Part shown: in pieces, positions 21,382 through 51,900 of the stretch | Numbering within the stretch: position 1 is the stretch's first letter | Layout: the number at the start of each line of letters is the position of its first letter | Assembly: GCA_973895155.1 (NCBI GenBank) | Contig: OZ316896.1 | Coordinates: forward strand, 22,277,722-22,341,721 | Source: Marsupella aquatica | Lineage: Eukaryota > Plantae > Marchantiophyta | Direction: 5' to 3' | Length of the DNA: 64,000 nt | The notes under the pieces: model-generated | Seen by the model: only the letters and a program-made list of their open reading frames with translations | Database searches by the model: none | Told to the model about the DNA's origin: nothing | Position numbers and translations under genes: made by a program

Positions 21382-22635
21382 TTAGTGCAATTGCGCAGCC
21401 TGGTCACTCTGCCTTTCTCCCTCTCCCTTGCATTCTCTCTGCTCCTCAAACAGCCACCAGCCTGCCACAGGTTGCACGGTATCATCCTTCCCGTCATGAT
21501 CTCTAGCTCTCACGCCACTGCTGGTAATCTCCATCCCAACGAGGCCAGCTACCATTACGGTGTTGAACTTAGCTCCGTTGTCGTCCAGTTTGACATTCAC
21601 CTCGGCATAAGCAGGCGGTATTGTCTTCGTGTCGACTCGATGATAGCCCACCCCATCCATTGTCAAACTCCCAAGCTCACTACGGTCCCAGTTTTTCTTC
21701 TCCCCCACTGTTTGATCCGAGTACAGCGGCTTTCCTTCTTTGTCGAAAAAGCAGAACGCCGTGATCCAGCCGGACAGGTACCTCGGCCCACTCCCTCCAC
21801 CAGAACGGTGCGCGATTTTCTGCCAGAAATCCTTAATTTCTTCTGAATCTGGTTCCTCGAACGACCGCACGAATCCAGCCAGGACAGGCCTGAGGAGGGA
21901 ATGCCACCGCGCCGTCTGTTCACCATACGAAGGAAGCTTCTCGGCTCTGCGAACAAGTTTCTCCCAGTCAGTCTTTTCGCCCAGGAGAGTCACAGCCGGT
22001 AGGCCGCATACCAATTCAAACTCATAGCTGAAGTAAGCCTTCAGCGTGGCCATCATAACGACCGAGGAGACAATCACATCATTGACGGTCGTCGTGCTGA
22101 AATTCGGGATGATCCACTCTCGCAGCTCCGGATCCTTGACCTTCCGCTGGATTTCGTGCCCCATCTGCTCCGCCATGGCGCCGAAATTAACATCATAGCG
22201 AGAACCCACGGCTGAGACGACCAGATGTTCCTGCCCTTCGTGTTCGACGAAGAGGTGTCGAAGCGTTTCCGCGTTCGCATTCACGTAGAGGTTAAACTGA
22301 GTGAGGATGGCGATCCAGACATCGTCGGGCCGGAGGACGAGGTGATGGTGGTAGCTGTACGCCCCCACGGCAGTGTTCACGAGGCCGTTCATGTCCGGGC
22401 AGACAGCAGACTTCGAGAGGTCAGTAGCAGCGAAGCGTTCAGCCCATTTAGAGACGCTTGATGATGAGTTTGAGGTGCCTGCCGCGAACGAGCTCTGGAA
22501 GATCTCTCTGCATTTCTCGGAGACGGGTGTGCAGGCCCGTTCGAGCAGATCCTTTGCGTCCCTAGCTGCTCTCTTGTACCCCGTGCTGCTCACGCTAGAG
22601 AGCGGCTTCGTCGACGGATGCACTGTAATCGTCAT
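21382..22635 (-). CDS. Intronless DUF4419-domain protein, copy C (417 aa from ATG 22635)
   Basis: Open frame containing NGLVNTAVGAYSYHHHLVLRPDDVWIAILTQF..YVNANAETLRHLFVEHEGQ, PNFSTTT, YFSYEFELVCGLPAVTLLGEKTDW, FWQKIAH..GGGSGPRYLSGWITAFCFF. These motifs are recognised as DUF4419 (PF14388). Confidence 0.85.
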   Translation of the reverse strand: MTITVHPSTKPLSSVSSTGYKRAARDAKDLLERACTPVSEKCREIFQSSFAAGTSNSSSSVSKWAERFAATDLSKSAVCPDMNGLVNTAVGAYSYHHHLVLRPDDVWIAILTQFNLYVNANAETLRHLFVEHEGQEHLVVSAVGSRYDVNFGAMAEQMGHEIQRKVKDPELREWIIPNFSTTTVNDVIVSSVVMMATLKAYFSYEFELVCGLPAVTLLGEKTDWEKLVRRAEKLPSYGEQTARWHSLLRPVLAGFVRSFEEPDSEEIKDFWQKIAHRSGGGSGPRYLSGWITAFCFFDKEGKPLYSDQTVGEKKNWDRSELGSLTMDGVGYHRVDTKTIPPAYAEVNVKLDDNGAKFNTVMVAGLVGMEITSSGVRARDHDGKDDTVQPVAGWWLFEEQRECKGEGERQSDQAAQLH

Positions 22636-24959
22636 GACGAAATTCAAGCCGGGTTTTCTCGATGCAATCAGCGAAGCTTCGAAGGCGAGATCTGAAGGCT
22701 GCGAGTGCTTCTCTTCAACTACGACAATTCACCCCAATGTAAGGTAATTCGGATTCAGGACTCCCACGAAATTCAACCGGGTTTACTCGACGCGATCAAC
22801 GGATCTTCGAAGGCGAGTGCCTCTCTTCAACTACTACAATGATTGACCAACGTGAGCTAATTCGGATTCAGGACTCCCACGACATTCAAGCAGGGTTTCT
22901 CGAAGCTATCAATGGAGCTGTCGAAGGCAAAATTCGGAGGCCACGAGAGCTTCTTTAAAAAAACTACGATGGTTGGTCCAATGTGCGAAAATTTCAGATT
23001 CGGGACTCCTACTGATGAGTTGCAGGATGTCAATTCACTGGAAGAGAAAGATATAGTTCGACAGCTGCTGATCACCGATTCCCGCATGTCCTCAAAAACG
23101 TGCCTCAAAATTAGCAATTGGACAGAATTGGACAGAAATTAGCATTTTCCCGAAGCAATTGCCTGGGTAATTACGGACCCCACTAGAGGTCCCTTCCAAA
23201 ATTCCTGGCACCACAGCGTGCCACGTCAACAACAAACAGGAACGAATTGGTCTCCACAATGAAATTATGCCCACATTCGTGTTTGCGACAAGATTTTGGT
23301 AAAACTGGGGACGCCATGCCGTAAAAATTCATGTAAACTTGTTTTACAATTAATCGTATTATTTACCTTTAGATAACAAATTATTGAAGTTGAGATAGAC
23401 AATAACCGTTTTTTCTACCCCTAAATAACGGAATGCACAACATTAAGTAATAACAATAAATAACAATAACCATTAAGTAATAAAAAAAATTAAATGTGTA
23501 ATCGAAATTAAGTAAGCACTTGTCACTAGAAACAGTTAAGTAAGTTTCTAGTGACAGTAGTGGATTAACGTCCACTACAATCCATCCCGCCCGCAATCCA
23601 AACTGTAACGAGTGCTCCTCCGCTCCACAACCTCTGCACGAATTCTCGTTGTTGATTTTGATGGTGATGGTGCGGTGAATGTGTGCATACGCAATGTTGA
23701 GAGAAACGAGAAGGTGAGAAAGAAGCTGCCCGATCGAAGATTCGATAACAAAGAAACCAGAAGTTCGATAACAAAGAAACCAGAAGAGGGATTATTCATA
23801 AGGACCGGGGTAGAGAAGAGCGGAAAACAAGCGACCTGAGCAGAAGAAAAAGGCAAAAGCAGATCGATCGAGACAAAAAGAAAAGTGAAACTGAACCCCG
23901 ATCTAAGGCCGAAAACTCACAAGCAAAAGAGAGAATTGAAGCAGCATAAGCATCGGGAGGCACTGGCGAAATAGAATTGACAAGGAGATTTGAAACGCAC
24001 AGAAAGAAACATCGAGAAACGAAATTGAAAAGAAAGAACAAAATCAAACAGACTGAAGAAGAACCGATAAGGACTTGAGCATAGAACCGAGGGCACTCGA
24101 TCAAGAAAGCTGAGAGAATCACTGAGAAAAGGCATGACTAACTAAGGCAAAAATTGAAGAACGAGAAATAGAAGCGCCGGCCCCGGAAGCAGCCCAAGAT
24201 TTTCAATTGGTGAGAGCCGATTTCCCAACTACGAACCTCTGTTATCTGATCGACCTCCAAACAGTACCTACAATACTGCTTTGAATTCATCACTGCTAGT
24301 TCTCAACTGCGCTGATCGAGAAGGAACACAGTTACACTGGTAGGAGTTCTAGGGGAAGATCGAGATGTGGGGAAGATCGAGATGTGGGCAAATTATTCGA
24401 CAGCAGATAGCACGACAATCACCCCATATCTATCATTTGGAGAGAGAACTCGAGGCACGCACAACGACCCACTGGATATACTAACAATGTAGACCTGTTT
24501 GTCTTCATTTGGTGAATTATCCATAGTTTTCCACCTTATCCTAATTGTCTACATTTGCCAAGGGACTAGATGTCTGTACAGATAAGAACTGTGCAAGATT
24601 ACAAATAATTGAGTAGCTAAGAAAATCCCTATAGAAGGAAGAACTTGGGAAGAGCGTACTGATTCCATTCGATAATGGAAATTCGGCGACAAGAAGCATC
24701 TTCTGTCTAATTGTCAGTTCAATGGACTTATTGGATGCAAGTGCGGTTTGAAAATGACTTGTGCTATCTCTTTCGGGTTTATCCAGGTTAATCGATACTG
24801 CGAAGAGGCTTGCATAAGAGATGAATTTTGAAAGTGGAGAATTGTAGCAAACAACAATGTCGTGAAGACAAACTACGAGGACTTAAGCTGGAAGCAAAAT
24901 GATGTCGAAGGTAAACTCCTGCTGCTGCGTGTTCTTCATAAGTACAGAGTAGGAACGAA

Positions 24960-25969
24960 AAGACAACACTAATCTAAGGACTTGAGTCATCGATATTGCC
25001 ACTCTTTGCGTACATGTGAACCAGTGCATTGGCCACACGCAATTCCGACTCCAGTCCGGCTTTGCTAGCATGGCCATGGACCTCCTTCAGCCAAACCAAA
25101 GCCCCAACACTTGCAGATGAATTCAGAATGCACAGATAAGTGATTGCATTTGGTTCTTAACATTCCCGTCTCATTTGGCGAAACAGTCGATATGCTTCCT
25201 GACCGCAACCACGTTCTGCATACGCGCCAATCATGGTATTAAACGTGATTACATTGGTCTTCAATTTATCAAAACTCAATCGGGCATCATCAATGCTACC
25301 ACTTTTCGCGTACATGTGAACAAGAGCATTGCCCACACGCAAATCCGACTCCAGTCCTGCTTTGCTAGCATGGCCATGAACCGCCTTCACCCACGCCAAA
25401 GCCCCTGCACTTGCAGATGCATTCAGAATGTTCGCATAAGTGATTGCATTGGGCTCCAAGCCTTCCCTCCTCATGTCGAGAAATAGTCGATATGCTTCCA
25501 AACCAAGACCACTTGCTGCGTATGCTCCAATCATTATGTTCCAGGTAATTAGATCTCGTCTTTTCATTCTATCAAACAATAGTCGGGCATCATCTATATT
25601 ACCACTTGCGGCATAGGCATCAATCATCACACTCCAGGTGATGAAATTTTGATGAGTCAAGTTGTCAAAAGCTCGCCTTGCCTCCGTGATGCACCCACAA
25701 TTTGCATACATCTGAAGGAGGGCAGTCCCTACACGCACATCTGATTCAAGACCGGCATGTCGAATACACACATGAACTTCTTTTCCCCATTCTGGAGCTA
25801 ATGGACTAGCACATGCCTTCAGGATGCACATATATTTGATGTCATTAGGCGGTCTACCTTCTTTGCGCATCAGTTTGAAAATTTGCAGTGTTGATTCAGC
25901 GTGATCACTCTTAGCATATCCTGCAATCATCATATTCCAAGTGACAGACAAAAAGAAAATGATCACCAC
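24960..25969 (-). pseudogene. PLS-class pentatricopeptide repeat (PPR) gene fragment
   Basis: P-L-S repeats: VTWNMMIAGYAK..PNDIKYMCILKACAS..GKEVH..SDVRVGTALLQMYANCG..DLITWNIMIGAYA..PNAITYANIL..SDLRVGNALVHMYAKSG. Degenerate repeats continue to about 24960. No N-terminus or E/DYW domain. Confidence 0.92.
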
Positions 25970-26224
25970 AAGCTCTCCGTTTCATCTGCGCAGCTCCCCT
26001 GAGAAAGAAACAGCCACTCTTCCATTTTTGAAATTGAAGGACAGGAAAAGATATGCATCTGGCACGAGTTAATTTTTAGCAATTTGGGTAGTCGATGATT
26101 GAAACAAGGCTGACAATCCCAGGCTCTGCTCTTCTCCCCCGAATCTGTCTATGGATATGTCTATGGAGCAGAAGAAGGTCGGGAGTGGGGGACTGAGGGA
26201 GTGGGGACTGAAGGAGTGATGAGT

Positions 26225-26470
26225 ATTGAGACTTGCTTGCAATGCGCTACCCGCTTGTATGGCTCGACGGTCACGGAGGGCAATATCATCAGCGTGTCTG
26301 GTGTTGTGCCCGATGAGCTGATGACCGGCCTACTCTCCGCTTGCCGGAGCGGCCAATTCAATCGGGCCCAGGCTGTGGTGACCAATGTTATTGCGGAGGG
26401 GCACCTTGTGTCGCAGATTTTGAGCCAGTTGTTCGGTTTGGTTATTAAAGCGCCAAAAATCACCGATGGA
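26225..26470 (+). pseudogene. Internal fragment of a replication factor C small subunit (human RFC4/yeast Rfc2-like)
   Basis: IETCLQCATRLYGSTVTEGNIISVSGVVPDELMTGLLSACRSGQFNRAQAVVTNVIAEGHLVSQILSQLF matches the RFC lid/collar region. It lacks the AAA+ core and the C-terminus. Confidence 0.8.
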
Positions 26471-29400
26471 GGTGAAAGACAGTCAGTCAAGCCATTAGGT
26501 TCACATGATTTCCAAAATCCTGTGAGGAAGGATTGTGTCCTCCATGGTTCATGCGATTGTTGCCCTGTCAAATTCAGTCTGTTCGGTATCTCTGAAATAG
26601 TTGTGAGGAATCGCAACTCTTCAAAAAGATACCTTGTACTTTTGGATACAGTGAAATAGTCGTGAACTCTAAACCTTTTGGGTTCTTTCGAATTAGGTCG
26701 AAAGTAAAAAAGTTTTGGAAGAGGGTTCTTATAATATCCGAATCAAGGGAGGTTCGGTTTGCAAACATTCTTTCCTTGGCGGTCCCGTAAGTTGTCGGGC
26801 TCCTAACTACGTTAATCAGTTCGTTACTATGCTGACAGTCTTCAAGAACCGTAAAGTCAGGAAGATACATCGCATTATTTAGGATGCAAGTATTCTCTTG
26901 AAAAGAAATCCCAATGCTGCTTCGAATGTGCAGGATAGTCTCCATTGTTTAATATGAAGGCCAAGGAAACAATTTTGCTAGCGCCTAGGTCCAACTCAGA
27001 ATATCTTGGATTGATAAAGTCAAATGCTTGAAATCTGTCAATTATTACGGATGGAGGGGCCAAAGTGAGCCTCGTTATTCTGTAGGGTGCTGAAACGTAT
27101 CTTACTGTTGCCATCACCGTAGTTTGATCCATCATGGTTTGCATACTCTCGACTTGTGTAATACTGTTCCTGCATCCTGGAGTGAGGGTTGTCCAAGTGC
27201 TGGAGAAGGGTCTTCGTTCAGCTGGTAGACATCCTGTGGCCGAATGAAATTGTCGGTAGTAAACAAACTGGAACCCTTGTGATGGGACATTTCGAATCGG
27301 CAATATAGAGGCAGATGCCAGAAAATACCTCATTGTCTCCCGAGTTCTATGTGAGAAAAGCGACGCCATCACAGAACCTGAATGTCTTCCTGTCAGTGTT
27401 CAGTAGAGGGAATAAGAAGTGTAATTCTATGAACTTCTACGGTAATTAGTCAAATGAGCTCCTCATGTTTGAGCTGTCTCATAACTGATGTAAGATTTTC
27501 CACGTAATTGAGTCTTGGTGTCCCAATCTCCAGCAATAAAAGACAGCACGCTTGGTCCTTCGTAAGATTGTCTCAATTGAAACTCAATTGAAACTCCATC
27601 CTTCCAGTGACCCTGTGAACAGTTCTTGGATCCGCTTCAGACAGGGAAACATGTTTAAGACACCATATTACAGTGCCGGGACCAAAGCAAAGAATTGGTG
27701 GTCGTTATCCCATTTTGATACATATCATCAATGTAATGTATGCTTCTCATTTGCAAATGTCCTCACGACATCCATCCCCTGCAAGTGAGCTAAAGGCATA
27801 GCTGGCATCCTTGCTCATGATAACTTCAATCCTCGGGCAGATCTTGACCTGACTAAACTGAGAAATTGATCATTAGTCACCAGATCAAGTAGTAACCAGA
27901 TTACAGGGTAGTTTCACTTGTGAAAGTTTTGGCCAGTCAGGGAAAGCATCTCGGCGGACCTTCATTTAAGGATTGACACTGGTGAACGTGTTCTCGAGAG
28001 CAAAATGCCCCACAAGCTGAAACAAGGTCAGCAGAATTATCCATAGTGGGAATACGACGTCGAAGATTTAAACACAGGAATTTCATGATTTCGAATCTGG
28101 GTACAGTACATCAGGTGCTAATTCTTTCGCTAGATTAGATTTGATTATTGCACTCCATTCAAAAATTCCGCTGTGAAGTTATACAACGCAGGAAACAGTG
28201 AAATAGCATCCTTGTACCTTGTACACACTAACCAAAAAGAAATTTCAATGCGTTGTGCAATGAATCACGTGCCCGCCTATTGGTGAGAAGGTCAGACTTG
28301 AGATGTTCTGACGAATAGTAATCCAGTCAAATCTCTATGATCTTCAAAGTAGGTAGGCATTCTGTCGGGACAAAAGTGAAAATTAGAAGATGATCTCGGA
28401 ACAAAAAAGGGCCATTTACAAAGAAAATGGAAAACAAAGTTTATACAACACTGCGAAAGAGCAAATAATGCCAAACAGGGAGACAGGATCCCAGAGGCAC
28501 GAGATCCACTAAAGGGGAGAAAACATGGAAAAAGTTCAGTAAGAACAAAAACTAAAGTGTAAAAAAGCGCCGAGTGAGGCACATATTAAGAATTCAGGGA
28601 TACTGGGGAATCAGACGGATACTGGTGTCCCTTCTTGCTTGTCATAACTAAATTAGAGAGACACCTTAAATAAAGTGAGTCATGCAACCTATACTTAGAG
28701 CCTATAACTAGACTGAAAATTATAATTAGGTTGACACCTGAAATAAACTTAAGTGAGTCACAATTTTATGTGAGATGTTTTTTATAGGCTAAGCTATCTT
28801 ACTAATAATTTGCAAAGCTACTTAAGGCCTATTTTCTAGAGTTGGCAACTCCCAATAAAGACAAAACTGATAATGAGTCTTTAATAATTACACAACTTAA
28901 AAAATGAAGATAAACCAAAAAAACAGTATGGGGGAGGGTGGACAAAGAACTAGATGGACAAAGATGAACTCAAATTAAAGCATACTTAGAATTGTTTCAA
29001 GGAATCTTGGGTAAGAGGCCTAGTTAGTGTAACTTACTAGAGATGGACACTTTATCTAATGGAACGTTTGTTTGGTACTCACACAATTTTTGCAGAAAGG
29101 GCATGGTGTGTCGGCCGATTTACTTAATGGTGTTCGGGAAGTTGGACATGAGTTTTCAAGTTACCTAGAGAAGAGAAGCTCCAAATAATTTAGACAGCGC
29201 TTCTACATACAGGTTTGATGTCTCCTGACTTTCAAAAAAACAGAATGGGGGAGGGTGAACAAAGAAGTTCTAGATGGGCAAAGATGAACCCAAATTAAAG
29301 CATACTTAGAATTGTTTCTGTGCAAGCCTTTTCTTTCTTCATATCTCTACTTTTGGTTATTTAATTTGGCATTTACTCTGTTGCGGTCCTTTAAGACGGT

Positions 29401-29639
29401 TTATTGTGCTTCGAATCCGGACCAACTCCGAATCATAGCCAGGTTTGAATTGCTTTTTGTCATTACAATTTTGAATTGCAACAAAGATCCTCACTTTGTA
29501 AAGAACATGAAGAAAATAATTTTAATATATACATATATATATACAAATATATCTTTATATTGACTGAGTATTAAACCTATATAATTCATTAGATTAGATT
29601 ACAAGTTTCTATAGTTGCCTGTACCAATTCACAAACTAA

Positions 29640-29790
29640 GGCGGTAGGCCGCTTGCTTACAATAGCTTCCAAAGATCTCTGAGGCATTACCCAAATTTTC
29701 TTCCGGTTGCCAATTATTCTCGGCCTGGTCATAACTAGCCCACTTCACCAAATACTCTAAGATTTGCCTTCCCAACTTGCATTTGTAACT
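29640..29790 (-). pseudogene. Chromodomain fragment (chromovirus integrase-type)
   Basis: KCKLGRQILEYLVKWASYDQAENNWQPEENLGNASEIF is a chromodomain signature (YLVKW..Y....W.P..NL). Confidence 0.75.
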
Positions 29791-30089
29791 CCTCAACGTC
29801 CTCCACCTCAAACTCCTCAACGTCCTCCACCAGCATAGCGTACAAACGCAAGACTTGATCCCGGTTGGGGTCATCGTCTTGGACAAATTTCTTGATTCAG
29901 CTAACATGGTAGCTTTTGCCCACTCCCATTTACTTGCGGGTTTACTTGGGTGTCTCCAACACCATCTAAACCGTATTATCTTTGTGGGCCTATCGTGTGA
30001 ATGATGCGATAGGGTTTCGCATACCAAGGAGAACTATACCTTGATTGGTAACTATACCTTAATGTAAGTATTGCTCTAACCGAAATACC

Positions 30090-30445
30090 TGGGAGAACTA
30101 TGCCTTGACTTGGTACAAGTCTTGGAAGAAGTTGCAAGAGGACTCTTCCTTGCCGTTAACTTGGAAAACCTAGTTGAGGGTCTTCGTGCTCATGTCACCA
30201 CTAAGTACCTACAGCGGCACGCTTAGAGATGTGTAACGTAAATGAGCTTTAGGGGTGATACCCAAAACTGGGAGAACTATGCCTTGACTTGGTACAAGTC
30301 TTGGAAGAAGTCGCAAGAGGACTCCTCCTTGCCGTGAACTTGGGAAAATCTAGTTGAGGGTCTTCGTGCTCATGTCACCACTAAGTACCTAGAGCTGCAC
30401 GGTTAGAGATGTGTAGCGTAAATGAGCTTTAGGGGTGATATCCAA
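30090..30445. repeat. 180-bp tandem duplication upstream of RepHel; a separate 27-bp x3 repeat lies at 30835-30906
   Basis: gggagaactatgccttgacttggtacaagtcttggaagaag occurs at about 30090 and 30270. Confidence 0.9.
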
Positions 30446-31071
30446 ATGATCATCACTTATTATCAAAACCATTTGGTGTGTATCCCGACGGGGCAAGAGA
30501 CACTACATACACAACTGCACAACTTTATAGTGAATCACGTGTGGCGCCATGGGTCATCATTGAAGTAAGGATTGTTCCACCAAAGGTGGCGAGCCGAGCG
30601 AAGATGGAGGGCAAAAGGGCAATAATGTAAGTATTGCTCTGACCGAACCCTTAGTAGTTGATGAGGTCCCTGTAGGGGATATGCCTGTCGGAGAGAAGGT
30701 GTTGTTGCGAGAGAAATTACGTAAGGTTATGACTATAAATCCTGACAAGCCAATTTTTGTGAATGTCACAAGTTCTAACGATAATTTGGGTGTTGCGTTG
30801 GTGGATACAAGCGCGACCGCCTGCTTCATGAGTGGCATGACCTTCGAGTAGTGTTTATGGCATGACCTTTGAGTAGTGTTTATGGCATGACTTTCGAGTA
30901 GTGTTTGGCGCTCTGCTAACTTGAGTTGGAGCCAAGCAACCAACTCTTCTTGGTAACTACGAGATCGTGATAAGCAAGACTCATTTCTGAAATTTCATTG
31001 ATCGAATTTTGGATGGACCCTAGCTAAGAAAACTGACGAGTTCATAATCCTTTGCATAGGGATCCCCAAAA

Positions 31072-34000
31072 ATGTCACGGCGTACAATGTCCGAGAAGAG
31101 ACATGCCGCACGAAGGCGTGCAATGAACACCTGTGCCGAGTCACTAAGTCCGTTATGTCAAGGATGGGCCTCAGCCCCATTGTATCTCCAAGAATGGAGA
31201 GAAGTTTGCCAAAAGACAATCCAAGGCATGAAGGTGTGCGGGATGTGCGGACTAGTTCGATACGGAAACACTCCGAGGATCGACAAGACATTCACCACCG
31301 TACCAAAGGTGAACATGACGCCGTACGGCATATGCAACGCATTTGTCAACCAGTACATTGAGAACCAAGATGGAACAATCAACGTGTGCATGACTTGCGT
31401 GCGAAACCCCGCCCGTATCCAGATAAACTCCTTCATATCTCCGCAATATGCGATCGACATCCTAGCCGCGAAGCCATTGTACATGCAATTGCTCTCGCTA
31501 ATCGACTGTCGACTAGGCATCATACAAAAGTACAATGGCTTCCACTCTGGCTTCTACAAAAAGGAAAGCCTCCTTGACAACCCGCTCATATCCTGGAATC
31601 TCGACACGCTAGAGTGCAATAATCGAGAGGAGATCATGCGACAGATATACAAAGTCATGGAACTCAATTTGACGACCAACCAACTTTTCAAAAGATACGT
31701 TTCATTGGTCGAACTACCAGACCCGTCACTGGGACTGTGCATCCTAAGTTCCGACGGAGTAGAGAACATCATCAAAGACAAGAGGGCAAAGGGAATAACC
31801 ACGAGATCCATGAACTTTGACCCATTCGACCCCGACCTGCACATCCTCCAAGATGTGCATTACCGGATCCCGACTTCACACAAGCGCAAGTACCAGGTCT
31901 TTCGTTCTGGCACCGTGTACGACCGCAAAAGAATGTGCTTCGAAGAGAGCGTCAACACCGATGCAGAAGGACTGTCGAACGATCCACAATTGACATTGGA
32001 AAATGCAATGTTCCCGTTCTTGTTCGTCCACTCGAGGGGTTTCCATCGAGGACAACTCAGCTTGATCGACTACATGAAACGGAGGACACAACAGTTGTTC
32101 AGCATATTCACTTTGTACAAGCCGTACATGCTTATCATGTACCAATTGCGACAGGCCAGCCAAGTAGCAAGCATGAGCAGGATGATAGTAATCGACAAGG
32201 AATACATGCAGATCAAGGAGAGGTGCCCCCACTTTAGCGAGAAGGAAATATACAAAATGCTGATAAAAAAGACAATCATGCAGGCCGTTCCTGGGAGTCC
32301 GGCGTGGCACGGAAGACACCTCGACGACCTCAAGTGCATGGTGAGAAAATGGGGACTGCCCCACTTCTTTCTCACGCTCACTTGCGATGAGCTCAGCGAC
32401 ACCCGTTGGCCTGAGATCGCCGACCTCGAGAACCTTGTGAAGAGGATGAATCCGACCTTCTCATGGAAAGATTGTCTTGTCGAATGCGCCGTGCTCTTCC
32501 ACGAATGAATCCAACGTTTTTTCAAGGATTATATTTTGTCAAAACGCGCCATAATCAGAAATGTGATCCACTACGTCATCAGGTACGAGTTGCAGGGCCG
32601 CGGATCACTCCACGCCCACACGGTGCTATGGGTCAAGGATTGCGACGTCGATCGAGTCATGAACGAAATTTCCGCATTCATCCGTGGCAGATTCGACTCG
32701 ACATCCGTCAGATTCGAAGAGCCGAATGGACTCGAAGAAAAGACCCTGTATCGCAACGTGGTGACGAAACAACTTCACTACTGCAAGGAGGGCTTGTGCT
32801 TGCAAAGGCACTCCCAAACCGGCCTCAAGTACTGCAAGTTGGGTTTCCCCCAAGAAACTTACCTCGACAAAGATGCAGCCATCGACCCCGCCACGGGGAA
32901 ATGGAGGTACCACAGGCCAAGCGACCACCATCGAAATGTCGAGCCATACCATCCGCTCGTGTTGCTGTTGTGGGGCGCGCACATGAACCTGCAGCGTGTC
33001 ACAAACGCGGCATGGTCATTCTATTTGCTCAAGTACGCGATCAAATGCGAGCCCCTAGGATCACTCCAGCTCAATGCAAACGATGTGCGCACTCTAGGAC
33101 TCGAGGACCTGTCTGAAGTCCAACTCAAGCTCGTCAGCGGAGCCGTCCTGTCTCGGAGCGTGTGCGCCACGGAGGCGGCCTTGACGTGCCTCAAAATCAG
33201 CATCATCCATCGCTCGGAGACAGTAATGTTCATGGACTCGTCGCCTCCGGAACTGAGGTCCGCCATCTACCGTAAGTCCTCGGGGATATATTTGCATCCC
33301 ACCAGACTCTACGCACAGAGGCCCGAGGACATGTTTGCAATGTCCTTCTACGACTACTTCACCAACCATGAGGTCCTCACCAATAAGAAAAGCACCACCA
33401 AAGACTACGTCGGCAGGGATTTGCAAGGCAATTTTGTGTATCGGACGGATCGGCTCGTGCGATTTTCAGAGTATCATCCAGTATACAAGATGAACGGCTT
33501 CTTCTACAACTACCTCCTGAAGGTCGTGAGATTCCGTGCAGAAGGCGAGATTCTCCTCAGGCCCATAAGCGAGACGTGGAGCTACTTGCACGAGTGCATA
33601 TACCGCAAGTTGATAACCAGCGTCGACAACGTGCACAAGTTGGTGCTTGAGTATTGTGCATCGCACCTCTACTCCACCCACCACACATCCCACCTGCTCC
33701 AGGAGCTGAACGAAAAGCTTCCCCACCAAATTTTCAACGACGCGGCCACATTCCAAGTGGTCCCCGCCGTCGCCGTAGAGAAACTGATCAGCGCGGTGCT
33801 CAACGACAAAACTCTCCCGACTGTCAACTTGACTCCGGACCAAATCAGAGTGTTTGAGGCACTCAAGGATGTCAAGAGCGGTCTGTTCATGATTGATGGA
33901 AATCCAGGATCCGGCAAGACTTTCTTCATCTCTTTCATGAACAAATACTGGACATATAAAGGGAGGAAGGTGAAGATGTGTGCCACCACGGGCGCGGCTG

Positions 34001-35196
34001 CCATAAACCTTAACGCCAACGCGGTGACAATGCATTCCTTGTTCAGCATTCCAATACACTGAGAGCTCAGGCCTCTGCACATCACCAGTCCCCAATACCA
34101 CATCTTGAGGAACAATGACGTGTTCGTCATAGACGAGGCGAGCATGCTGACACCCAAACTGTTGCGTTGCGTCTCCACAAGACTACACGAGACACTCCAA
34201 GACGAGGACCGCTCGTCCGACCCGTTCCAAAATAAGACGGTCATCCTGGTCGGAGACATGTGCCAATTGCCTCCGGTTTGCACCCACCACACCAATGACA
34301 TATGCAAGTCGTGCCACCTCTCGTCGTCGCCATATTTTGAGACCATGCGGAAATTTCACCTCAGCACTGTGCTCAGACAGAGCACAGACCCGGAGTTCAT
34401 GGAGTTCCTTAACAACATCCGCACGGGCCTCCCTACCCAAGAATCGATCGATGAGTGCTTGGGACGATGTTACGTGTCCAAACCAGAAGCCCATGATTTC
34501 ATCGACGCCTCGACAACCATGATATGCACACATAGAGAAATAGTCAACAACTACAACGAACGGGCATTACAGAGATATTTTCCACGCCAAGAGATCGTGC
34601 CCGTCCCAATACTCACCAATGCCCCTTCAGATGAATCCATCCGGCCTTGGATACAAGATCCCTCCTTCCACACACTGACGAACATTGCAATCGGATGCAA
34701 AGTGATTCTCACACACAACATCGACCTCTCCAAGCAGGCCGTGAACGGCAACGGAGGAATCGTGGAGAAAATCACTATAGAAGCCGAAGGCAAAATGTTG
34801 ATTTTTGTGAGAATGTCTTCCAACCACTGCCTCGTAAAGATCAACCGCACGGTTCACGAGAACAAGTTCATCTCGGGACAGCAAATCCATCGGAAATCCA
34901 CTTTCCCTCTCATGCTCGGATACGCCATAACAGGTCACAAGAGCCAAGGATGCACACTAGCGGGCAAGGTCGTGCTAGAAATAAAGAGTGCATTCACACC
35001 GGGACTGGTGTACGTTATGTTGAGTAGGGTCACAAATAGAGCATCCATGCGCATTGTTGGAGATCTTACGCCGCCGGACTTCAAAGTGTTCCACTTACCA
35101 ATTCGTCGTGTTCAACAAGCAGATGTCGACCACCAAAGGCAACAAGGCAGCGAAGGCATCACAACAACAACGAGAAACGATGACAGGCACAAATAG
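31072..35196 (+). pseudogene. RepHel transposase (HUH Y2 Rep + Pif1-family SF1B helicase), HLE2-type; one 1375-codon frame with two in-frame TGA codons
   Basis: ORFs 31072-32508, 32536-34062 and 34105-35196 share one frame. Motifs: N-terminal CxxC...CxxC; LENAMFPFLF; PGSPAW..DLKCMVRKWGLPHFFLTLT..WPEI; YELQGRGSLHAHTVLW (HUH); YLLKYAIK (Y2); GNPGSGKT; IDEASML; GDMCQLPPV; LRQSTD; FPLMLGYAITGHKSQGCTL; YVMLSRV. Confidence 0.95.
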
Positions 35197-35992
35197 CAAT
35201 ACGACAAGCGCTACTCCTACAACAGTTCAGGTAAACAGTGTCCACTTCATACTTCACATTGTTGATGCAAGCGATATATAATGAAATGATGATACGAAAG
35301 TTGCACGATTCATTAACATTGACGGGCAGTATTGTTCTAACACATTGTTCATGTCTTTCCTGTGCAGCCCATGACAGCCGTGGAGATGGCAAGGATGATC
35401 ATGAGAGAGCTGCCGTCAGATGACTTCCGGACTGACAAGGAAGTAACAGCTAAACAAATTGCTTTCGGCAACGGTCTCAGAATCGAGACAACTGAGATGG
35501 TGAACGGGATCAAGAGGAGAGATCTGTCGAAGATGATCGAGGAGAGGAAAGTGTTCAAGGCCGACTTCTACGATCATTACGGAGATAAACCGGCGACTGG
35601 TAAGCACAAAGATAAAACCCCCAATAAAAAATGACTTAAACCATCTCATGCACACATTAAGCACTAACTCCGTGTTGAAAACAAATGCAGGAGTCATGAA
35701 GGAGATTCTTAGGTACATGGCAGTTCCGTTCGAGGAAGACCAGCTCACTTACAAGGACGGGATGCGTGAGTACATCCAGGTCACAAAGGGAGCTCGTCTG
35801 GAGCAACTGACCAGATTGAGGCATGATTTCAAGATGCCACTTGATATGTTGGTAGGGCTGACACATCATCAATCCCAGTCCCTGATCGACAGGCTGAGGA
35901 GGAGCAATGACGAGGGGCTGCTATCTGACGTCCCTGCCCAAACAGCAACGGAACAACCCACCACATCCAAGCGGAAATTCAACGCGATGTGA
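35123..35992 (+). CDS. Predicted 3-exon accessory gene of the HLE2 element (exons 35123-35230, 35368-35599, 35691-35992; 213 aa), function unknown
   Basis: Intron 1 is CAG|gtaaac...ttctaac...tgtgcag|CCC (phase 0). Intron 2 is G|gtaagc...cactaac...atgcag|GA (phase 1). Splicing gives one uninterrupted frame ending KRKFNAM. Confidence 0.75.
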
Positions 35993-37252
35993 CAGTTGTT
36001 TCCATGATGTAGTACAAGTTTCATTTTTCAGAACAATGTGGTGTCTCATGCAAAAACAAATGACGAGTCCCAATAAAGATACCCATTGTGGGAAACATAT
36101 TTATCTATATCAATAACTGTCTACTTTTTAACACATTTTTTATCTGTATCAATAACTATCCAATTTTCAATCTCAATCGAATAAAAACAGGTGGGGGTCC
36201 ACGAACTAATTGGATACCATTAAGCCGTGTACTATGCTAAGTGGCAAGCGCCCACAGGTTCAATTTATTGTTCATGGTGGTAATTGCATATGAAAAAGCC
36301 ACTGTACACTAAGGAGCTGTCGCTCGTGCTTTTGTGGTACCATTTTCCCGAAGCAATTGCATATCAAAAAGCAGTGTACTATGCTAAGTGGCAAGTGCCC
36401 AGAGGTTGAATTTATTGCATACCAGAAAGCGGTGTACTGCGCTAAGTGGCAAGAGCCCACAGGTTGAATGTGCTTCTCATGGTCATAATTGCATATCAAA
36501 AAGCACGCTGAGGTCTTTTGAGGTTTGTGGTTAAATTTCTTGTTTGATTTCCTTTTCTAGGACCCCTGCTTCTCTCCTGGTTGGATCCTCTCTTGACTTT
36601 TTAGCTTCTATTTAGCAATTCTATTAACCTCTATTTAGCAATTCTACCATTTCTGCTTGGATTTTGACTCTGCATCGAGTTTGTTGCTAGGTACTCAAGA
36701 CTTCGTGTGAAAGTGGTTTCTGATGTGGGGGAGTAAAACTCTCTCCTATCGTTTAGGGCTAGTTTCATTGGACCCTGACTACTACTCAGAGTAAACTAAA
36801 TAAAAGGGTGTTGTCAGACCAGGTGTTGCTCCTTACATTCATAGCCAAACCCTACTTTGGAGATGATCTTACAAGAACCACCTAATATCAGATGACTGGT
36901 CCTTCCAAGATTTTGCTTTAGATTTCATCAAAGAACCATTTCATCAGAGAAAACCTCTCATAGCAAGGGAATTGTCCATTTTGACACCACACTAAAGAGG
37001 TCACTTGTACAAGAGATCTCTTAATCCTACATGGACAGGAGTGGGTCTCCCAAAAGGCTTATGTGGACAGCGGAGTTCTGGCCAAAGTTTGGGCCACCTG
37101 TGGAGGTGGTACCTTGAAAGCACCTCTTGGTCTTTTCTCATTCTATCACTAGAGTGGACTGCTTGACCACCTTTTGGGGTCAGGACAAAGTACATCCATA
37201 TGGACTTGTGACATGGTAAAACACAAGTGAGTGCTCGTTGTTGGTTGGTCAT

Positions 37253-40217: not shown

Positions 40218-42123
40218 TTTTTAACTAACTTTGTCAGTCTTAGCATTAGGACCTGGTTACATAAGCTGTGTATTTGGGGGTTGGATTGCTCTGATTATTA
40301 TGGCCAGATTTTGGATTTTCCAGAGAAACTATGGGTTGGTAATAGCACAAGGGAGTGTAAAAAACTTCACTCTGTAGCCAAGAAAAGGAGGGCAATTAGT
40401 CTTCTTGTGAACAAATCACTCATTGGTCACAGGCCTGGTTCACATGGTTCTTCATTTACTCACTAACTCCAGGTGAGCTTCCTGCACAGGGAGGGACCTG
40501 GAGTGACAGGGGGTGAGGCAAGGATGGTCAACCCACCAGGGGAGTGGGTCCACGAATTCACCACCCTACTAACAGAAGACAAGGGGCTCTTGCCACATGG
40601 GTACTGGCTACTATAGCACCCCCAAACACTGACTAGCCAGTATTTTTCCTACTAGTTTGGGGTAAAGTAAAGTTTTGGAACCTTTGACTTAGAGATATAT
40701 ACTTGATGGACCCATAAATTGAAAATGTTACTTCTTCATCGGGTACTTGATGGACCCCATGAGGCCTTTCCAATGACCCACATGCCATATGACAAATTTT
40801 TATGCCAAATAATTATGCATCCTGAATCTGGTAGTCCATAACTTTATCCATAACTTTATCTGTCTGTAAATTTAGCTATAACAACTAAGTTAAAGTTTAT
40901 CTTTGGGACCCCTATTGATAAATGCAAATTCCAATTGTTTGCACTTATGGCTAGTGCAAACCCTCATAAACGCTGGAGCCTTCTTTTGGGGGAGTGTGCA
41001 CTTAGAGAGAACTGGGGTCGTCCGAAGTCCCCTAGTCGGTCGTGTGTCGAATTCTTTGACCGAGCTGGTCTTGAGGAAGTCACCGCGATGCCTCCTCCTC
41101 CTCCACCTTTCTGCAGAATGATGGACAACTTGTCGCCGCTTTGCCTCGGATTCCGGAGCGGGTCTGCGCTCTGCACACTGTTGTTGATTTTTAGAACTTG
41201 AGATGGCCGGCATTGAGCAGGTCCTGGCAAATCCTCTAGCTTGAATGGCGGAGTGGAGAGAGTGGCTTCGTGCTTGAGGCAGCTGATCTGCAGCAGCGGT
41301 GATCGTTCACAGTTTCAATCGGCCATGCACTTGTGCTTCTGGAGATGGGATTTCTACGAAATTGCAGATTCCTTGTAGTAAGAATTCGCCTTCCCCCGTC
41401 ACCACTTCGTCACCATTGCTTTGCAGCGTTAAGGGGAGAGTTGAATCTCGCGACATTGCCCGTCAATGGCTTCCTCGCTTCGGCTTCCGCGTGATTACTT
41501 GGTTTCTCGTACCTGGTAGTTTCCGACCTTGCACACGTTATGTACAGTCACGAGATTGTCAATTTTTTTCTCCTGGCTACGCGGGTTCTCTCAGTTAAGT
41601 TTAGTGCAGCTATAGGTTGGTCGATCAGCATTCTGAATGAGAACAAGTTATCTGCCTGTAGGGTCTTTGGAGAAAATGATGTTCGGGCTAGATGCCGTCA
41701 CTGCATATTGAGTGCCAGACTGTCCACATTGTCCGTAGATGTGACCGTTGTTTGCAAAGAGCCCTGAGGTTTGGTCATTGCAATTAGACGATTGCAATTT
41801 GTACCGGGAGGACCTTGCTCTGGCGACTGCTAGCAGCATTCAACATTTTTATGAGGCTGTCGCGTGCTGCTGGTGAAGGTTTATGCATTCCTCGTCACGA
41901 TATGTCCGTTGTGAGAGACAGCTTGGACTTCAGCGTCTCCATAGTTATCTTCGTTGAGAATATGGCGTCCTATGTTGTGTCTCCTGATGATCCAGCTTGC
42001 CCCCAAGTTGTCGCCTTTGTTACAGTTTTAGTCAAGTGAATTGCTTTCGTGTTTAAGCTGGAGAGAGATACTGGCTTTCAGTGGTTGAGCTCTGGTTGAG
42101 GTCTTCTGAGAAGTGGATTCTTT

Positions 42124-44088
42124 TTGAAACTGGATCAAGGACAATTTAGGCATTCGCTTTGGGAGAAGATGTCACCGCCTTTCTTCTTCGTGAGCCTTTT
42201 GTCCATCTTGATGATATGGATGATCACCATCGTGGGACTGCCATCCTACTGCTGGACTTACTTTGTGGTGCCTTGTGTCTCGGTCTACTGTTTCTGTGAC
42301 CGGCAGAAGTTGTCGGAAGGAGTAGTGGGAGAGTTCACCAAGTCTTTCAGGGGAGCGAGTATTTCTGTTGCAATTCTCGCTTCCTTGTACGTGGGTTACC
42401 TTCCTTGGAAGTCGGTCATTCTGCTTTGTTGCATTTTCTGTCTGATCAAAGCTTTCAGCTCCGAGAAGATGATGTTCTCAGGGGACTACTGCGGGGAGTT
42501 AGCTAAATTTGCATGGTGGAGAGTAGCTAAAAAATTAGTTCCCAATCAATTTGACCGAATGGGTTGGAGAGGGGATTGGTCCTATTGTAGTCCCTACAGC
42601 AGAGCACCGCATCGCAGAAGTATAGATTCCTATTACGTCTTGTCGGAACAAGTGTCACGGGAGGAGCGGATTCCAGGTCGATTTGAACTCTCATTCGCCA
42701 TCGAGGACTGTAAAGTAAAGTGCGAGTATTTTCCAACTTGTGGGGATGTTAGGAGCCCAGAGAACATCATCGGCAGAATAACCGCAGAGTCAGAGATAAC
42801 ACAGGAGCCCGTGGTACCCATCGTTTGTGACGATGAGGCAGGAACATCATCTTCTCAAAGACCAGACGAGGCAGGAACGTTATCTTCTCGAAGATCAGAA
42901 GGGGCAGGAACGTCATCTTCTCAAGGACGAGAAGTCGCAGGGCCGTCATCTTCTCAAAGACCAGTTGGGGCAGCGGCAGCAGATGGATGCCCATTGCCAC
43001 AAACTAGGGTTGTGGAGGGACCGGTTCAAATTGAGGCTCAGGCCAACAAGCTTGAGGTGACTTTATGTTTACTACAAGGGGGTGAAGAAATTGACAGCTT
43101 CACATTCTTTCAAATTGATGGCAGCAGGGTCATGGAAATCAAGCGAGCAATGGAGGTGTTGAGAAATCACGGGAACCTTATTTTTTCCAGTTTCCATCGG
43201 GACATCGGCTCTCGTACCCCCAGAGCCCACGCAGGGTGTTATGAGTTTGAGGAGATTTTCTACTTCATCCTAATCAAGGGCTACACGGTCCAAAAGGTCA
43301 AATTGAGTAGCCAGCACGCGTGCTCAATCTCTGGAACGACGATTATGAAAGTTTTACAAACATTAGTGGTAGCTTGGATGCAATATTATCAACTGTCCTC
43401 AGCACCAATGCCTAGCATCTTCACTATGCTGTTTTTTTTCATCTTCGTTCAAGTGTTCTTTGTAATCTTGGAGACTACACTTGCAGAGAAGGATTTCGCC
43501 AAAAGACTGTTGCACTCACTTATCAAGCGTACAATGCCCAATCGAGTCGACGGTTGGTATAAGTATTTTCAAGTGGAGTGCCCATGGTTGACATTTTGCA
43601 ACCAGAGTTATGGTCATCCCTGTACTTTCGAGAATTTCAGGGTTATGTGCTGCTTTGATAGAACCGAAGGACATGTTGCTTCGACTGGGCATCAGCATGA
43701 GTATCTCACCGGGGACTATATGTTTGACATTGGTGAAACATTCTATGATCTCCGAAATGTCAACTTGCGGCTGGAGATTAGGAAGGATGAAAAGGATGAT
43801 GAAGTGGAAGCATTAGTTGTTTATGTCACCTGCATGTGGACAATAAATCGTGAGCAGTTCTATCAAAACATCTTCCGCATTATTGATAGTAGGAAAATTT
43901 CCAATTTGATTGCTGTATTAAATTGGTTGCGTGCCAACAATTGGCAAGGAGTATGCAGAAGATGGAAGAAAAATACAATGCATGTCTTCACTTATGAAGA
44001 GCTTATTGGCAAGATATTGGACGAGGAACATTATTATCTTCCTTGGCTGATTCACGTCAACAATGGTATGACTGTACACGTGGAATGA
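42124..44088 (+). CDS. Hypothetical intronless membrane protein with two related modules; may be the open core of a longer decaying gene
   Basis: 654-codon open frame (first ATG 42169) with hydrophobic segments near the N-terminus and around residues 410-450. A 33-bp x4 repeat (EAGTSSSQR) lies at 42835-42965. The same frame is open upstream at 41815-42039, separated by TGA codons. No family recognised. Confidence 0.6.
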   Translation: MKLDQGQFRHSLWEKMSPPFFFVSLLSILMIWMITIVGLPSYCWTYFVVPCVSVYCFCDRQKLSEGVVGEFTKSFRGASISVAILASLYVGYLPWKSVILLCCIFCLIKAFSSEKMMFSGDYCGELAKFAWWRVAKKLVPNQFDRMGWRGDWSYCSPYSRAPHRRSIDSYYVLSEQVSREERIPGRFELSFAIEDCKVKCEYFPTCGDVRSPENIIGRITAESEITQEPVVPIVCDDEAGTSSSQRPDEAGTLSSRRSEGAGTSSSQGREVAGPSSSQRPVGAAAADGCPLPQTRVVEGPVQIEAQANKLEVTLCLLQGGEEIDSFTFFQIDGSRVMEIKRAMEVLRNHGNLIFSSFHRDIGSRTPRAHAGCYEFEEIFYFILIKGYTVQKVKLSSQHACSISGTTIMKVLQTLVVAWMQYYQLSSAPMPSIFTMLFFFIFVQVFFVILETTLAEKDFAKRLLHSLIKRTMPNRVDGWYKYFQVECPWLTFCNQSYGHPCTFENFRVMCCFDRTEGHVASTGHQHEYLTGDYMFDIGETFYDLRNVNLRLEIRKDEKDDEVEALVVYVTCMWTINREQFYQNIFRIIDSRKISNLIAVLNWLRANNWQGVCRRWKKNTMHVFTYEELIGKILDEEHYYLPWLIHVNNGMTVHVE

Positions 44089-50199: not shown

Positions 50200-51900
50200 C
50201 CGTTTGGTTATCCCCCAGTCGGTAGTGTCTCCTTTTGCTCATCTTTCATTGCTGACGCTCTCCAGGCTGCCTTAGCCCCTATTCCTATGCTCCCTAAGTT
50301 AGCAGACTCTCAGGCAGCATTTGGGTTGTTGTTGAGATGCATCCACCCTCGTGCGTCCTATTTGGCTCGGACACATCCCCCTACCGAGGATCTTTATCTA
50401 CACCTCTGAGCATTTGATCTCTCCATTCGTGAGACTTTGGCCTCTCTTTTAGGGCCAGGTACTTTGCTCTCATCTCCGTGGCTTTATCAACAGCTCAGTC
50501 TTCCTATTTCTCACGGTGGTTTTGGGCTTACTTCCACTGAGCGCCTTGCACCTTTGGCCTTCTTGGGCGCGTGGGCGGCCGCCTTCTCATTGTTGGCTGA
50601 TCGTTTCCTTGCTGAGGATCGACCTTTTTTACTTTTGTCTCTCATGGAGGTCGAGGAGGGTTCCCTCCCATTTCAGGTTCATTTGCGCACGGCGCGGTCA
50701 TCATTACCCGATCCTGTTCGAGCTGCGTTACCTTCATTCCAGGAGTTTTTATCCTTGGACCCCGTCCGTCTTCAGGCAGACCTTGCTGGGCGTATGCACG
50801 CTTTCACCCTCTCCAGCATCCTCACCGAGGCACCTGACACAGACCGAGCTCAGATTCTTTCTTCCGGAGGGAAGGGCGCAGGAGGCTGGCTTCAGGCCAA
50901 TCCAGTCATTCCTCACCTGCGGATGTCTTCAGCGGAGTTTGCGACAGCCATGCGTCTTCGTATGGGCTTGCCCCACCCACTTCTTGCTGGTTTATGTCCT
51001 ACTTGCACTTGTGGGAAGCCTTGTGATGCCACAGGTGTCCATCTTCTTCAATGCAGTTTGGGCGGCGAAACCATTTTTGTTCACGACGTTGTGAGAGATG
51101 CGACTGCTCAGGTTCTCTCTGGCTCTTTGGTCTGCGCGCGGCGGGAGGTGGTGCTCGAGTTACCTGGTCCTCCATCACAGCGGTTACGGGTGGATCTTAC
51201 CATGGTCCGTGAAGGTCACCGTACTTTGGCAAATGTAGTGGTGGCAAACCCATTGCGCCAAGACATCATTGGGACAACGGCAACAACGGCAGGGGCAGAA
51301 GCATCACAAGCAGCAACAACGAAGGAGGCCAAATATGTTGCACGAGCTTCATCTGATAGCTTCCTGCCCCTTGCTCTTGAGATATTTGGGCGTCTCCATC
51401 ATCAGTTCGACGGGCTTCTTTGCCAAGCTGCTCGGGATGTTCACGGCCGAATGGGTCCCACCAGGCCCCCACTATCTGTTTTGACCACGCACTTTTGCCA
51501 ACGCATTTCAGTCACCTTACAGCGTGCTCAAGCTCGGGCCGTCTATTGTCGATCTCTGAGAGTGGGTGCTAGTGTGACTCCGCAGCGGCTAGCCCCCCTA
51601 GAGGACATTCCTGTCCCACTTGCCGATCTAGTTTTGACACTTGATGTAGACCACTAGCTTGTTGCCACATTTGCTAGGTATGATGAGGACCTCGGTCCAT
51701 TTGCGGTAGTTTTAGTTCCTCTTTCTTGGTTTTTAGGGGTTTCTTTTTGCTCACTTCTTTTAGTTCCTCTTTCTTGGCTTTTAGGGTTTCCTTTTGCTCA
51801 CTTCTTTTGCGTTTGGTTTTGTCCACTTGGGACCTCTCTTGTTTATTCTTTTGTACTCTATTTGGCCTTTTTATGTAAAAAGTATGTGTATATTTTGTTG
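50200..51900 (+). mobile_element. 5'-truncated non-LTR retrotransposon with restriction-like endonuclease (CRE/NeSL-like)
   Basis: ORFs 50182-50409 and 50437-51657 are in one frame, split by a TGA. RT thumb LSLPISHGGFGL; CCHC knuckle CTCGKPCDATGVHLLQC; RLE region HDVVRD..RVDLT..KEAKY..FLPLALEIFG; T-rich 3' UTR. Confidence 0.85.

What the first reader, a model, noticed from the sequence alone, without database searches (positions are those of the whole stretch)
35123..35992. Hidden intact 3-exon accessory gene overlapping the RepHel end, encoding a triple-repeat protein
Seen: three ORF-track fragments splice into one 213-aa frame through two canonical introns with CTAAC branch points and matching phases. 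The product has three related ~35-aa units (KEVTAKQIAFGNGLRI..KRRDLSKMIEE; KPATGVMKEILRYMAV..LTYKDGMREYIQ; KGARLEQLTRLRHDF..LTHHQSQSLIDR) and a C-terminal KRK. It is intact while RepHel has two stops. An AG sits directly before its ATG (35121-35122), so it could be spliced to a distant 5' leader. Established: known Helitron/Helentron companions are mainly RPA-like OB-fold proteins, AP endonuclease and OTU protease, and this resembles none of them. Inference: the units recall the small helical 'AT-x-x-Q...LT...AS-x-x-I' module of DUF3072-like and helicase C-terminal domains, so this may be a nuclear nucleic-acid-binding cofactor or anti-silencing factor of a two-gene rolling-circle system.
Basis: partly seen in the sequence, partly recalled or inferred. 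Interest (0 to 1): 0.8.

Follow-up and report, generated by a model that had tools for sequence, protein, structure and literature searches.

The report
Hidden helper gene in rolling-circle transposons
A decayed copy of a much-repeated rolling-circle jumping gene (Helitron) in a land plant carries, right behind its transposase, a second small gene with no match in Pfam that sits at the same place in two very distant relatives, and its protein, predicted to be a chain of small two-helix modules, likely binds the element's DNA in the nucleus to help it move.

Summary
The gene is real. The three exons join into an open 213-aa frame through two GT-AG introns. Eleven homologues exist, four of them annotated in the liverwort Riccia sorocarpa. 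Spliced homologues run colinearly across intron 2, and unspliced gene calls begin at the same acceptor. Two metagenome Helitrons whose helicase is only 37-39% identical carry the gene directly behind RepHel: one is intronless, one has an intron at the same place and phase. The gene is not universal: 2 of 40 Helitron loci with enough downstream DNA have it. Variants among copies are mostly synonymous (9 of 15). The 'intact while RepHel is broken' argument is chance (p 0.75). Exon 1 lacks homology support, and no RNA run was listed. The 'triple repeat' is weak: units 2 and 3 are supported, unit 1 is borderline. Units 2 and 3 resemble DUF3072 in profile comparison but do not reach Pfam membership. 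Unit 3 overlays weakly on LEM/SAP/Rho-N two-helix folds. Most homologues end in an S/T-P-x-K/R motif beside a basic patch. Best reading: a new family of HLE2 accessory protein, likely a nuclear DNA-binding helper. Function is untested.

The parts
31072..35196 (+). RepHel transposase frame (HLE2-type Rep motif 2 with S; Pif1 helicase), broken by stops at 32506-32508 and 34060-34062
   Evidence: motif rule from PMC4067079 passage
31015..31059 (+). Splice-acceptor-like signal 13 nt before the RepHel ATG; suggests an upstream leader exon (inferred)
   Evidence: sequence
30836..30910 (.). Three 25-nt tandem copies at the junction with a cut, higher-copy repeat; the element's 5' terminus was not found and is probably lost in this copy
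35123..35230 (+). Candidate exon 1 (36 codons, T/S/Q-rich, overlaps RepHel end in another frame); coding status unsupported by homologues; second in-frame ATG at 35180
35231..35367 (+). Intron 1 (GT..AG, CTAAC 35337-35341, GC 0.37, phase 0)
   Evidence: the near-identical Riccia models P0017 and P0019 diverge within about two codons of this acceptor
35368..35599 (+). Exon 2: conserved N-terminal helix and unit 1 (35440-35550); in-frame ATG at 35371
   Evidence: 38% identity over 68 aa to P0010, E 5e-12
35600..35690 (+). Intron 2 (GT..AG, CTAAC 35664-35668, GC 0.36, phase 1), position shared with L011
35691..35992 (+). Exon 3: most of unit 2 (to 35782), unit 3 (35783-35899), low-confidence tail with KRK (35969-35977), stop
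36100..36170 (+). Two 32-nt direct repeats (84% alike, 39 nt apart) in the 3' subterminal region; candidate binding sites (speculative)
36191..36211 (+). 3' end of the element: weak 4-bp hairpin (36191-36202), then CTAATT; copies diverge into different flanks behind 36211
   Evidence: 9, 16 and 15 contigs with loose ends behind 36211 in X2, X3, X4; agreement 0.40-0.47

Best explanation
The stretch is a second protein-coding gene of an HLE2-type Helitron, found directly behind RepHel here and in two distant relatives, and its product, predicted to be two or three tandem two-helix modules with a basic tail, likely works in the nucleus as a DNA-binding helper of transposition. Shown: the open spliced frame, the homologues, the linkage in L011 and L012, the multi-copy element and its 3' end. 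Predicted: the all-helical fold, and the likeness of the modules to DUF3072 and (weakly) to LEM/SAP/Rho-N helix-extension-helix folds. Inferred: the modules grip duplex DNA, for instance the subterminal repeats or the circular intermediate, and hold it for RepHel or tether it to chromatin. The role would be like that of relaxase accessory proteins of rolling-circle plasmids (recalled). The S/T-P-x-K/R motif beside the basic patch would time nuclear activity to the cell cycle. This copy is probably non-autonomous (RepHel stops, 5' end probably lost).
For: Open frame and splice signals. phmmer with exon 3: 11 hits at E<=0.001, of which 9 align over the domain at 35-54% identity and 2 are repeat artefacts; two more. 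P0010 and P0017 continue into exon-2 homology across the intron-2 junction, while P0009, P0011 and P0016 begin with the same acceptor-encoded A-G as the unspliced window frame. L012 (helicase 37% identical) has an intronless 248-aa homologue about 400 nt behind RepHel: HMM E 9.9e-6 before it was in the model, leave-one-out 31.3 bits against a best shuffle of 5.3. L011 (39%) has a homologue 42 nt behind RepHel with a phase-1 intron at the same alignment position: leave-one-out 14.0 bits against 6.4. The Riccia model P0019 starts with a RepHel helicase motif (E 5e-4 among 11 homologues). Diverged contigs match the RepHel end and exon 3 but not the stretch between. Of 15 listed variants in the exons, 11 are at codon position 3 (p 0.002) and 9 are synonymous (p 0.006). 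AlphaFold2 gives exon-3 helices at pLDDT 92-96. Against a DUF3072 profile from 27 real sequences, unit 3 scored probability 57.5% (E 1e-4) and unit 2 22.8% (E 9e-4), each 0 of 30 shuffles as high; six control targets gave at most 1%. DUF3072 in turn resembles Rho_N (23%, E 9e-4). Unit 3 overlays on Rho N-terminal, emerin LEM and MANF SAP domains at 1.6-2.2 A over 35-38 residues. An S/T-P-x(1,2)-K/R motif occurs in the last 60 aa of 9 of 13 proteins, against shuffle rates of 0.06-0.42.
Against: No binding or expression data. The fold matches are not significant (best Z 4.3-4.4; Foldseek E>=0.3). Units compared directly with Rho_N score nothing (E>=0.13). The DUF3072 E-values are pairwise and would not stand out in a library-wide search. 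38 of 40 Helitron loci with at least 650 nt downstream show no homologue, most from one AT-rich clade of 35 rows, so related elements exist without a detectable copy of the gene. The genomic context of 10 of the 11 database homologues is unknown. The variant list is the 40 best-supported of 335 rows. The window's own protein lacks the S/T-P-x-K/R motif. LEM domains bind protein rather than DNA (recalled), so the fold does not fix the ligand.
Confidence: 0.45

Rival explanations
1. The protein is an adaptor: its small helical modules bind RepHel or a host single-strand-binding or recombination protein rather than DNA, as the lambda Red-beta C-terminal domain binds exonuclease and SSB.
For: [quoted passage not shown] Their roles come from the abstract of PMC6393309. 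This element shows no RPA/OB domain in the frames scanned.
Against: Z values are at noise level. Unit 3 against the Red-beta C-terminal sequence gives E 0.052, no better than cro or cI controls.
Confidence: 0.2
2. The protein is an anti-silencing factor that recognises the element's own DNA and keeps it free of methylation or repressive chromatin, like the VANC proteins of VANDAL elements (recalled).
For: Basic nuclear-type tail and candidate repeated sites. Helitron2 families of Chlamydomonas carry TET/JBP genes (bioRxiv 10.1101/2022.06.16.496473 passage). Two unreviewed earlier notes describe TET-like and methyltransferase-like cargo in other Helitrons of this genome (leads only).
Against: No catalytic or chromatin-reader domain in Pfam or the fold searches. 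Nothing here tests methylation.
Confidence: 0.2
3. Exons 2-3 are a C-terminal extension of the transposase, spliced in frame onto RepHel, and not a separate protein.
For: The Riccia model P0019 joins a helicase motif to the domain. The gene always follows the helicase end on the same strand.
Against: RepHel ends in its own stop before a separate ATG-led frame in L011 and L012. No long fused protein appeared among 1.84 billion representatives. P0019 would lack most of the helicase, so it is probably a prediction artefact.
Confidence: 0.08
4. It is a captured host gene fragment carried passively.
For: Helitrons capture genes often (PMC11417382 sections 4 and 22). The gene is not detected in many relatives.
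Against: The same position behind helicases that are 37-39% identical and more than 1.4 changes per site apart. Protein-level conservation, synonymous excess, and no characterised host family in Pfam or the representative search.
Confidence: 0.07

Closest known systems
HLE2 (Helitron2/Helentron) elements with companion genes, such as HelenSM92 of Sphagnum magellanicum with GIY-YIG (PMC11417382)
   Same: HLE2-type RepHel with an extra ORF at a fixed place. L012 also carries a GIY-YIG ORF (Pfam E 1.1e-10) behind the small gene.
   Different: This gene has no Pfam family, so that Pfam-based survey could not have listed it. It matches none of the companion domains named in the sections read (RPA, OTU, EN, Ssb-like OB, B3, STPRs and others).
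Orphan ORF of Fusarium FoHeli3 (PMC5148889 passage)
   Same: A Helitron2-only ORF without known domains.
   Different: That ORF is upstream and in opposite orientation, in one subgroup. Its sequence was not compared here.
DUF3072 (PF11272), bacterial, function unknown
   Same: Helix-loop-helix module with an LT..A..LI-like second helix; units 2 and 3 align in register. A tandem pair also occurs in a bacterial protein (L178).
   Different: No Pfam hit even at E 10. The N-terminal W-x-T-x-D part of DUF3072 lies outside the aligned stretches. Eukaryotic, intron-containing and transposon-borne.
Helix-extension-helix domains (Rho N-terminal, LEM, SAP)
   Same: Unit 3 overlays at 1.6-2.2 A over 35-38 residues.
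   Different: Z 3.2-4.0 only, and no sequence-profile match to Rho_N.

Membership tests
HLE2 (Helitron2/Helentron) | Rep (HUH) domain followed by a Pif1 helicase | tested here: met
   Helitron_like_N E 1.6e-8 and PIF1 E 1.1e-10
HLE2 (Helitron2/Helentron) | Rep motif 2 with S after RG and an R just before the motif (PMC4067079) | tested here: met
   IRYELQGRGSLHAH in the window frame; rule from passage
HLE2 (Helitron2/Helentron) | Short asymmetric terminal inverted repeats and 5' hairpin | tested here: inconclusive
   5' end not found; no inverted match over 9 nt between the 3' end and 25000-31100
HLE2 (Helitron2/Helentron) | Insertion between T and T; 3' hairpin | tested here: inconclusive
   Copies share ...CTAATT before diverging, with a weak 4-bp hairpin. 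No empty site was examined, and CTAA also fits the HLE1 CTRR rule.
HLE2 (Helitron2/Helentron) | Transposase groups with reference HLE2 rather than HLE1 | not tested
   The tree held no named reference elements
Helentron in the strict sense | AP-endonuclease domain behind the helicase | tested here: not met
   No such Pfam hit in the RepHel frames or the exons
Known Helitron companions (RPA/OB fold, EN, OTU, GIY-YIG and other Pfam domains) | Pfam match over the cut-off for one of these families | tested here: not met
   0 of the 14 sequences of this family scanned pass any Pfam cut-off; the models are all-helical
DUF3072 (PF11272) | Pfam score of 27.5 bits or more | tested here: not met
   No DUF3072 row at E<=10 for 14 sequences
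DUF3072 (PF11272) | Profile-level likeness of the two-helix module | tested here: inconclusive
   Unit 3 probability 57.5%, unit 2 22.8%, unit 1 1.5% (3 of 30 shuffles as high); controls at most 1%
Helix-extension-helix (LEM/SAP/Rho_N) | Two-helix fold with extended linker | tested here: inconclusive
   Z 3.2-4.0, rmsd 1.6-2.2 A over 35-38 residues; Z 2.6-2.9 with the window's own model
Helix-extension-helix (LEM/SAP/Rho_N) | Nucleic-acid or chromatin-protein binding | not testable with these tools
   Needs a binding assay

The most novel reading that the evidence does not exclude
An old branch of HLE2 Helitrons is a true two-component rolling-circle system. RepHel is paired with a dedicated accessory protein built from bacterial-type DUF3072 modules that binds the element's ends, is gated by CDK phosphorylation next to its nuclear signal, and is made from the same promoter by a splice that skips the whole RepHel frame. 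This would be the eukaryotic counterpart of a relaxase accessory protein.
Probability: 0.2. Interest if true: 0.75.

Novelty: new variant of a known kind. Interest (0 to 1): 0.52.

Why it matters
In the HELIANO introduction, Helitron companion genes are described as fragmentary, likely non-essential captures, and that survey found them only through Pfam. This family has no Pfam match, yet it has kept its place behind RepHel across elements whose helicases share under 40% identity, and it shows signs of purifying selection. That points to a functional second gene that such surveys miss. L012 offers an intronless natural RepHel (5' end cut off by the contig) and accessory pair for an ordinary transposition or binding test. 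A function would also be a first clue to the bacterial DUF3072 family, for which the paper search found nothing.

Tried and rejected
No whole genome is held for this window, so copies could not be aligned and dN/dS could not be computed. No RNA holder was listed. The word-indexed protein search with exon 3 found nothing, while full phmmer did. P0007 and P0015 were dropped as repeat artefacts. Pattern scans with exon 3 found no close relative in metagenome or prokaryote genome contigs, and the L012 ORF gave no locus in viral contigs. P0010 had no tblastn match in phages or plasmids. Profile A4 matched 0 of 201 genomes of one bacterial phylum, without a positive control. PHROGs, solved-structure sequences and Rfam gave nothing significant. 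The ESM Atlas lead for P0017 (fungal clusters partly carrying DUF6590, score 0.86, 141-149 shared features) is below the tool's trust level and was not followed. Foldseek against PDB and viral models gave no match at E<=0.001. The complex prediction of L012 RepHel residues 400-1105 with the L012 small protein gave no verdict. Downstream DNA of the AT-rich clade showed only DNA-level similarity among close copies and no conserved frame, judged by eye. The 5' terminus was not found. The RepHel tree is the quick version, not the finished careful search. Paper searches for Helitron with SAP domain, for helix-extension-helix with transposon, and for DUF3072 returned 0 papers. Searches listed no title or abstract describing this gene. 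Repbase entries and the papers' supplements were not seen and may hold the ORF unnamed.

Full report
Setting. The window is repeat-rich eukaryotic DNA with a PPR gene, DUF4419 copies and retroelement relics. With the Riccia homologues below, this points to a land plant, probably a liverwort (inferred). One frame from 31072 to 35196 encodes a RepHel with two stops, matching Helitron_like_N and PIF1. Its Rep motif 2 has the serine that a passage of PMC4067079 gives as diagnostic for Helentron-type proteins. Contigs of four public runs (two organism labels, no RNA on record) show a multi-copy element: 168-403 contigs per run were laid on 34700-36700, and 9-16 contigs in three runs diverge into different flanks behind 36211. 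The 5' end was not found. At 30835 a higher-copy repeat is cut and joined to a 25-nt tandem array, and its continuation is not the 3' flank, so this copy is probably 5'-truncated (inference).

The gene model. The three exons give 213 codons and a stop. The introns have GT..AG ends, CTAAC branch motifs and low GC. Homology carries the case instead. phmmer with exon 3 against 1.84 billion representatives gave 11 hits; 9 align over the domain at 35-54% identity and 2 are repeat artefacts. I looked up 10 of the 11. P0013, P0017 and its cluster mate P0019 are Riccia sorocarpa gene models, and a profile search added P0020 from the same species. P0010 and P0017 carry on across the intron-2 junction into exon-2 homology (38% over 68 aa, E 5e-12; 23%, E 1e-4). 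The unspliced gene calls P0009, P0011 and P0016 begin with the acceptor-encoded A-G seen in the window's read-through frame. P0017 and P0019 are nearly identical from a point within about two codons of the intron-1 acceptor and unrelated before it, which supports an acceptor there. Exon 1 itself has no clear homologue.

Selection. Of the 40 best-supported variants listed (335 in all), 15 fall in the exons. Eleven of these are at third positions (p 0.002) and nine are synonymous (expected fraction 0.26, p 0.006). In the RepHel frame 5 of 13 were at third positions. The list is a selected subset, so this is supporting evidence only. None of the 12 listed indels (34 in all) lies in exon 2 or 3; one contig lacks a base in exon 1.

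Linkage to RepHel. A scan with a helicase alignment returned 80 metagenome loci, plus 10 viral ones. A profile of the small protein searched over all 90 in six frames hit L012 (E 9.9e-6) and L011 (E 0.051); the next best was E 5.7. L012 has an intronless 248-aa ORF about 400 nt behind RepHel, followed by a GIY-YIG ORF. L011 has a two-exon homologue 42 nt behind RepHel with a 194-nt phase-1 intron at the position of intron 2, cut by the contig end. Leave-one-out scores were 31.3 and 14.0 bits, and no shuffle of 500 reached them. P0019 begins with a helicase motif, so at least one Riccia copy lies beside a RepHel. In the quick tree, the window, L011 and L012 sit on three long separate branches. 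Against generality: of 42 Helitron-like loci that I picked by hand, 40 had at least 650 nt downstream and only these 2 carry the gene. Most of the others belong to one AT-rich clade of 35 rows. L062 (1863 nt downstream) also shows none, and L019, L022, L036, L037, L048 and L064 have too little downstream DNA to test.

The protein. No Pfam, PHROGs or PDB-sequence family matches. AlphaFold2 gives an all-helical model (P0010 mean pLDDT 72.8; window exon 3 84.6) with helix-linker-helix units and a low-confidence tail. The internal repeat is weak: unit 2 vs 3 gave E 0.0035, and unit 1 vs either about 0.05. All three units align in the same register; unit 3 scores 57.5% (E 1e-4), unit 2 22.8% (E 9e-4) and unit 1 1.5%. 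Rho_N and five lambda proteins or domains gave at most 1%. These are pairwise values for one hypothesis stated beforehand, not library-wide significance. Structure searches give only low scores. [quoted passage not shown] Nine of 13 proteins (two near-identical) end with S/T-P-x(1,2)-K/R, usually beside a basic patch; reading this as a CDK site next to a nuclear signal is recalled knowledge. The window's own protein has the basic patch but not the motif.

Mechanism. The likeliest reading (0.45) is a nuclear helper whose tandem two-helix modules bind duplex DNA of the element and present it to RepHel or tether it to chromatin. Rivals are a protein adaptor (0.2), an anti-silencing factor (0.2), a spliced RepHel extension (0.08) and a passenger (0.07). 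I put the gene's being real and element-borne at about 0.93. How it is expressed is open. RepHel's ATG follows a strong acceptor-like signal, and acceptor-like signals also precede the small gene's ATG in the window, L011 and L012 (read by eye). That fits a shared leader, but AG is common and an internal promoter fits as well.

Literature. PMC11417382 (abstract, passages, sections 4 and 22) lists 20 captured domains found by Pfam search only and reports a GIY-YIG domain in a Sphagnum HLE2. PMC5148889 (passages) notes one orphan ORF in FoHeli3. PMC3627910, PMC4067079, PMC10288648 and bioRxiv 10.1101/2022.06.16.496473 were seen as passages, and PMC6393309 as abstract. None of what I read describes this gene, and the searches turned up no description. 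Supplements and Repbase were not seen and could hold it as an unnamed ORF.

Verdict. The DUF3072 likeness is a tested lead, and the function is inferred. This is a new accessory-protein family of a known transposon group; interest 0.52.

Noticed in passing
L012:4495-4818: GIY-YIG nuclease ORF (Pfam E 1.1e-10) directly behind the small gene, giving a three-gene HLE2: RepHel, helper, GIY-YIG. A weaker GIY-YIG-like match lies on the minus strand of L043 (1418-1648).
   Followed up: partly
L012:3446-3694: Array of 8-nt-based tandem repeats between the RepHel stop and the small gene.
   Followed up: no
window 36100-36170: [quoted passage not shown]
   Followed up: no
window 36107-36211: Higher contig depth and loose ends before 36175-36180 suggest non-autonomous families sharing only the 3' tip; joints 35617>36139 and 35149>35725>36184 may be internally deleted or diverged copies.
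   Followed up: no
window 15543-16496 and 21382-22728 (minus strand), partial copy near 6149-6448: Tandemly duplicated DUF4419 genes (Pfam E 1e-96 and 1e-118) within larger repeated blocks.
   Followed up: no
window 42100-44088 (+): 662-codon open frame without Pfam match, with hydrophobic segments and an internal 33-nt repeat.
   Followed up: no
window 60440-63331 (+): Broken frames without Pfam match that look by eye like a DDE-type DNA transposase relic.
   Followed up: no
window 50410-51657 (+): 415-codon frame that looks by eye like the zinc-knuckle and restriction-like endonuclease end of a non-LTR retrotransposon; no Pfam match.
   Followed up: no
window 36194-36504 and 6690-6769: The 3' flank holds three copies of a short repeat, also present at 6690; the element appears to have inserted at its edge.
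   Followed up: no
L178: A bacterial 155-codon frame with two tandem DUF3072-like modules, showing that the module also occurs in tandem in bacteria.
   Followed up: no
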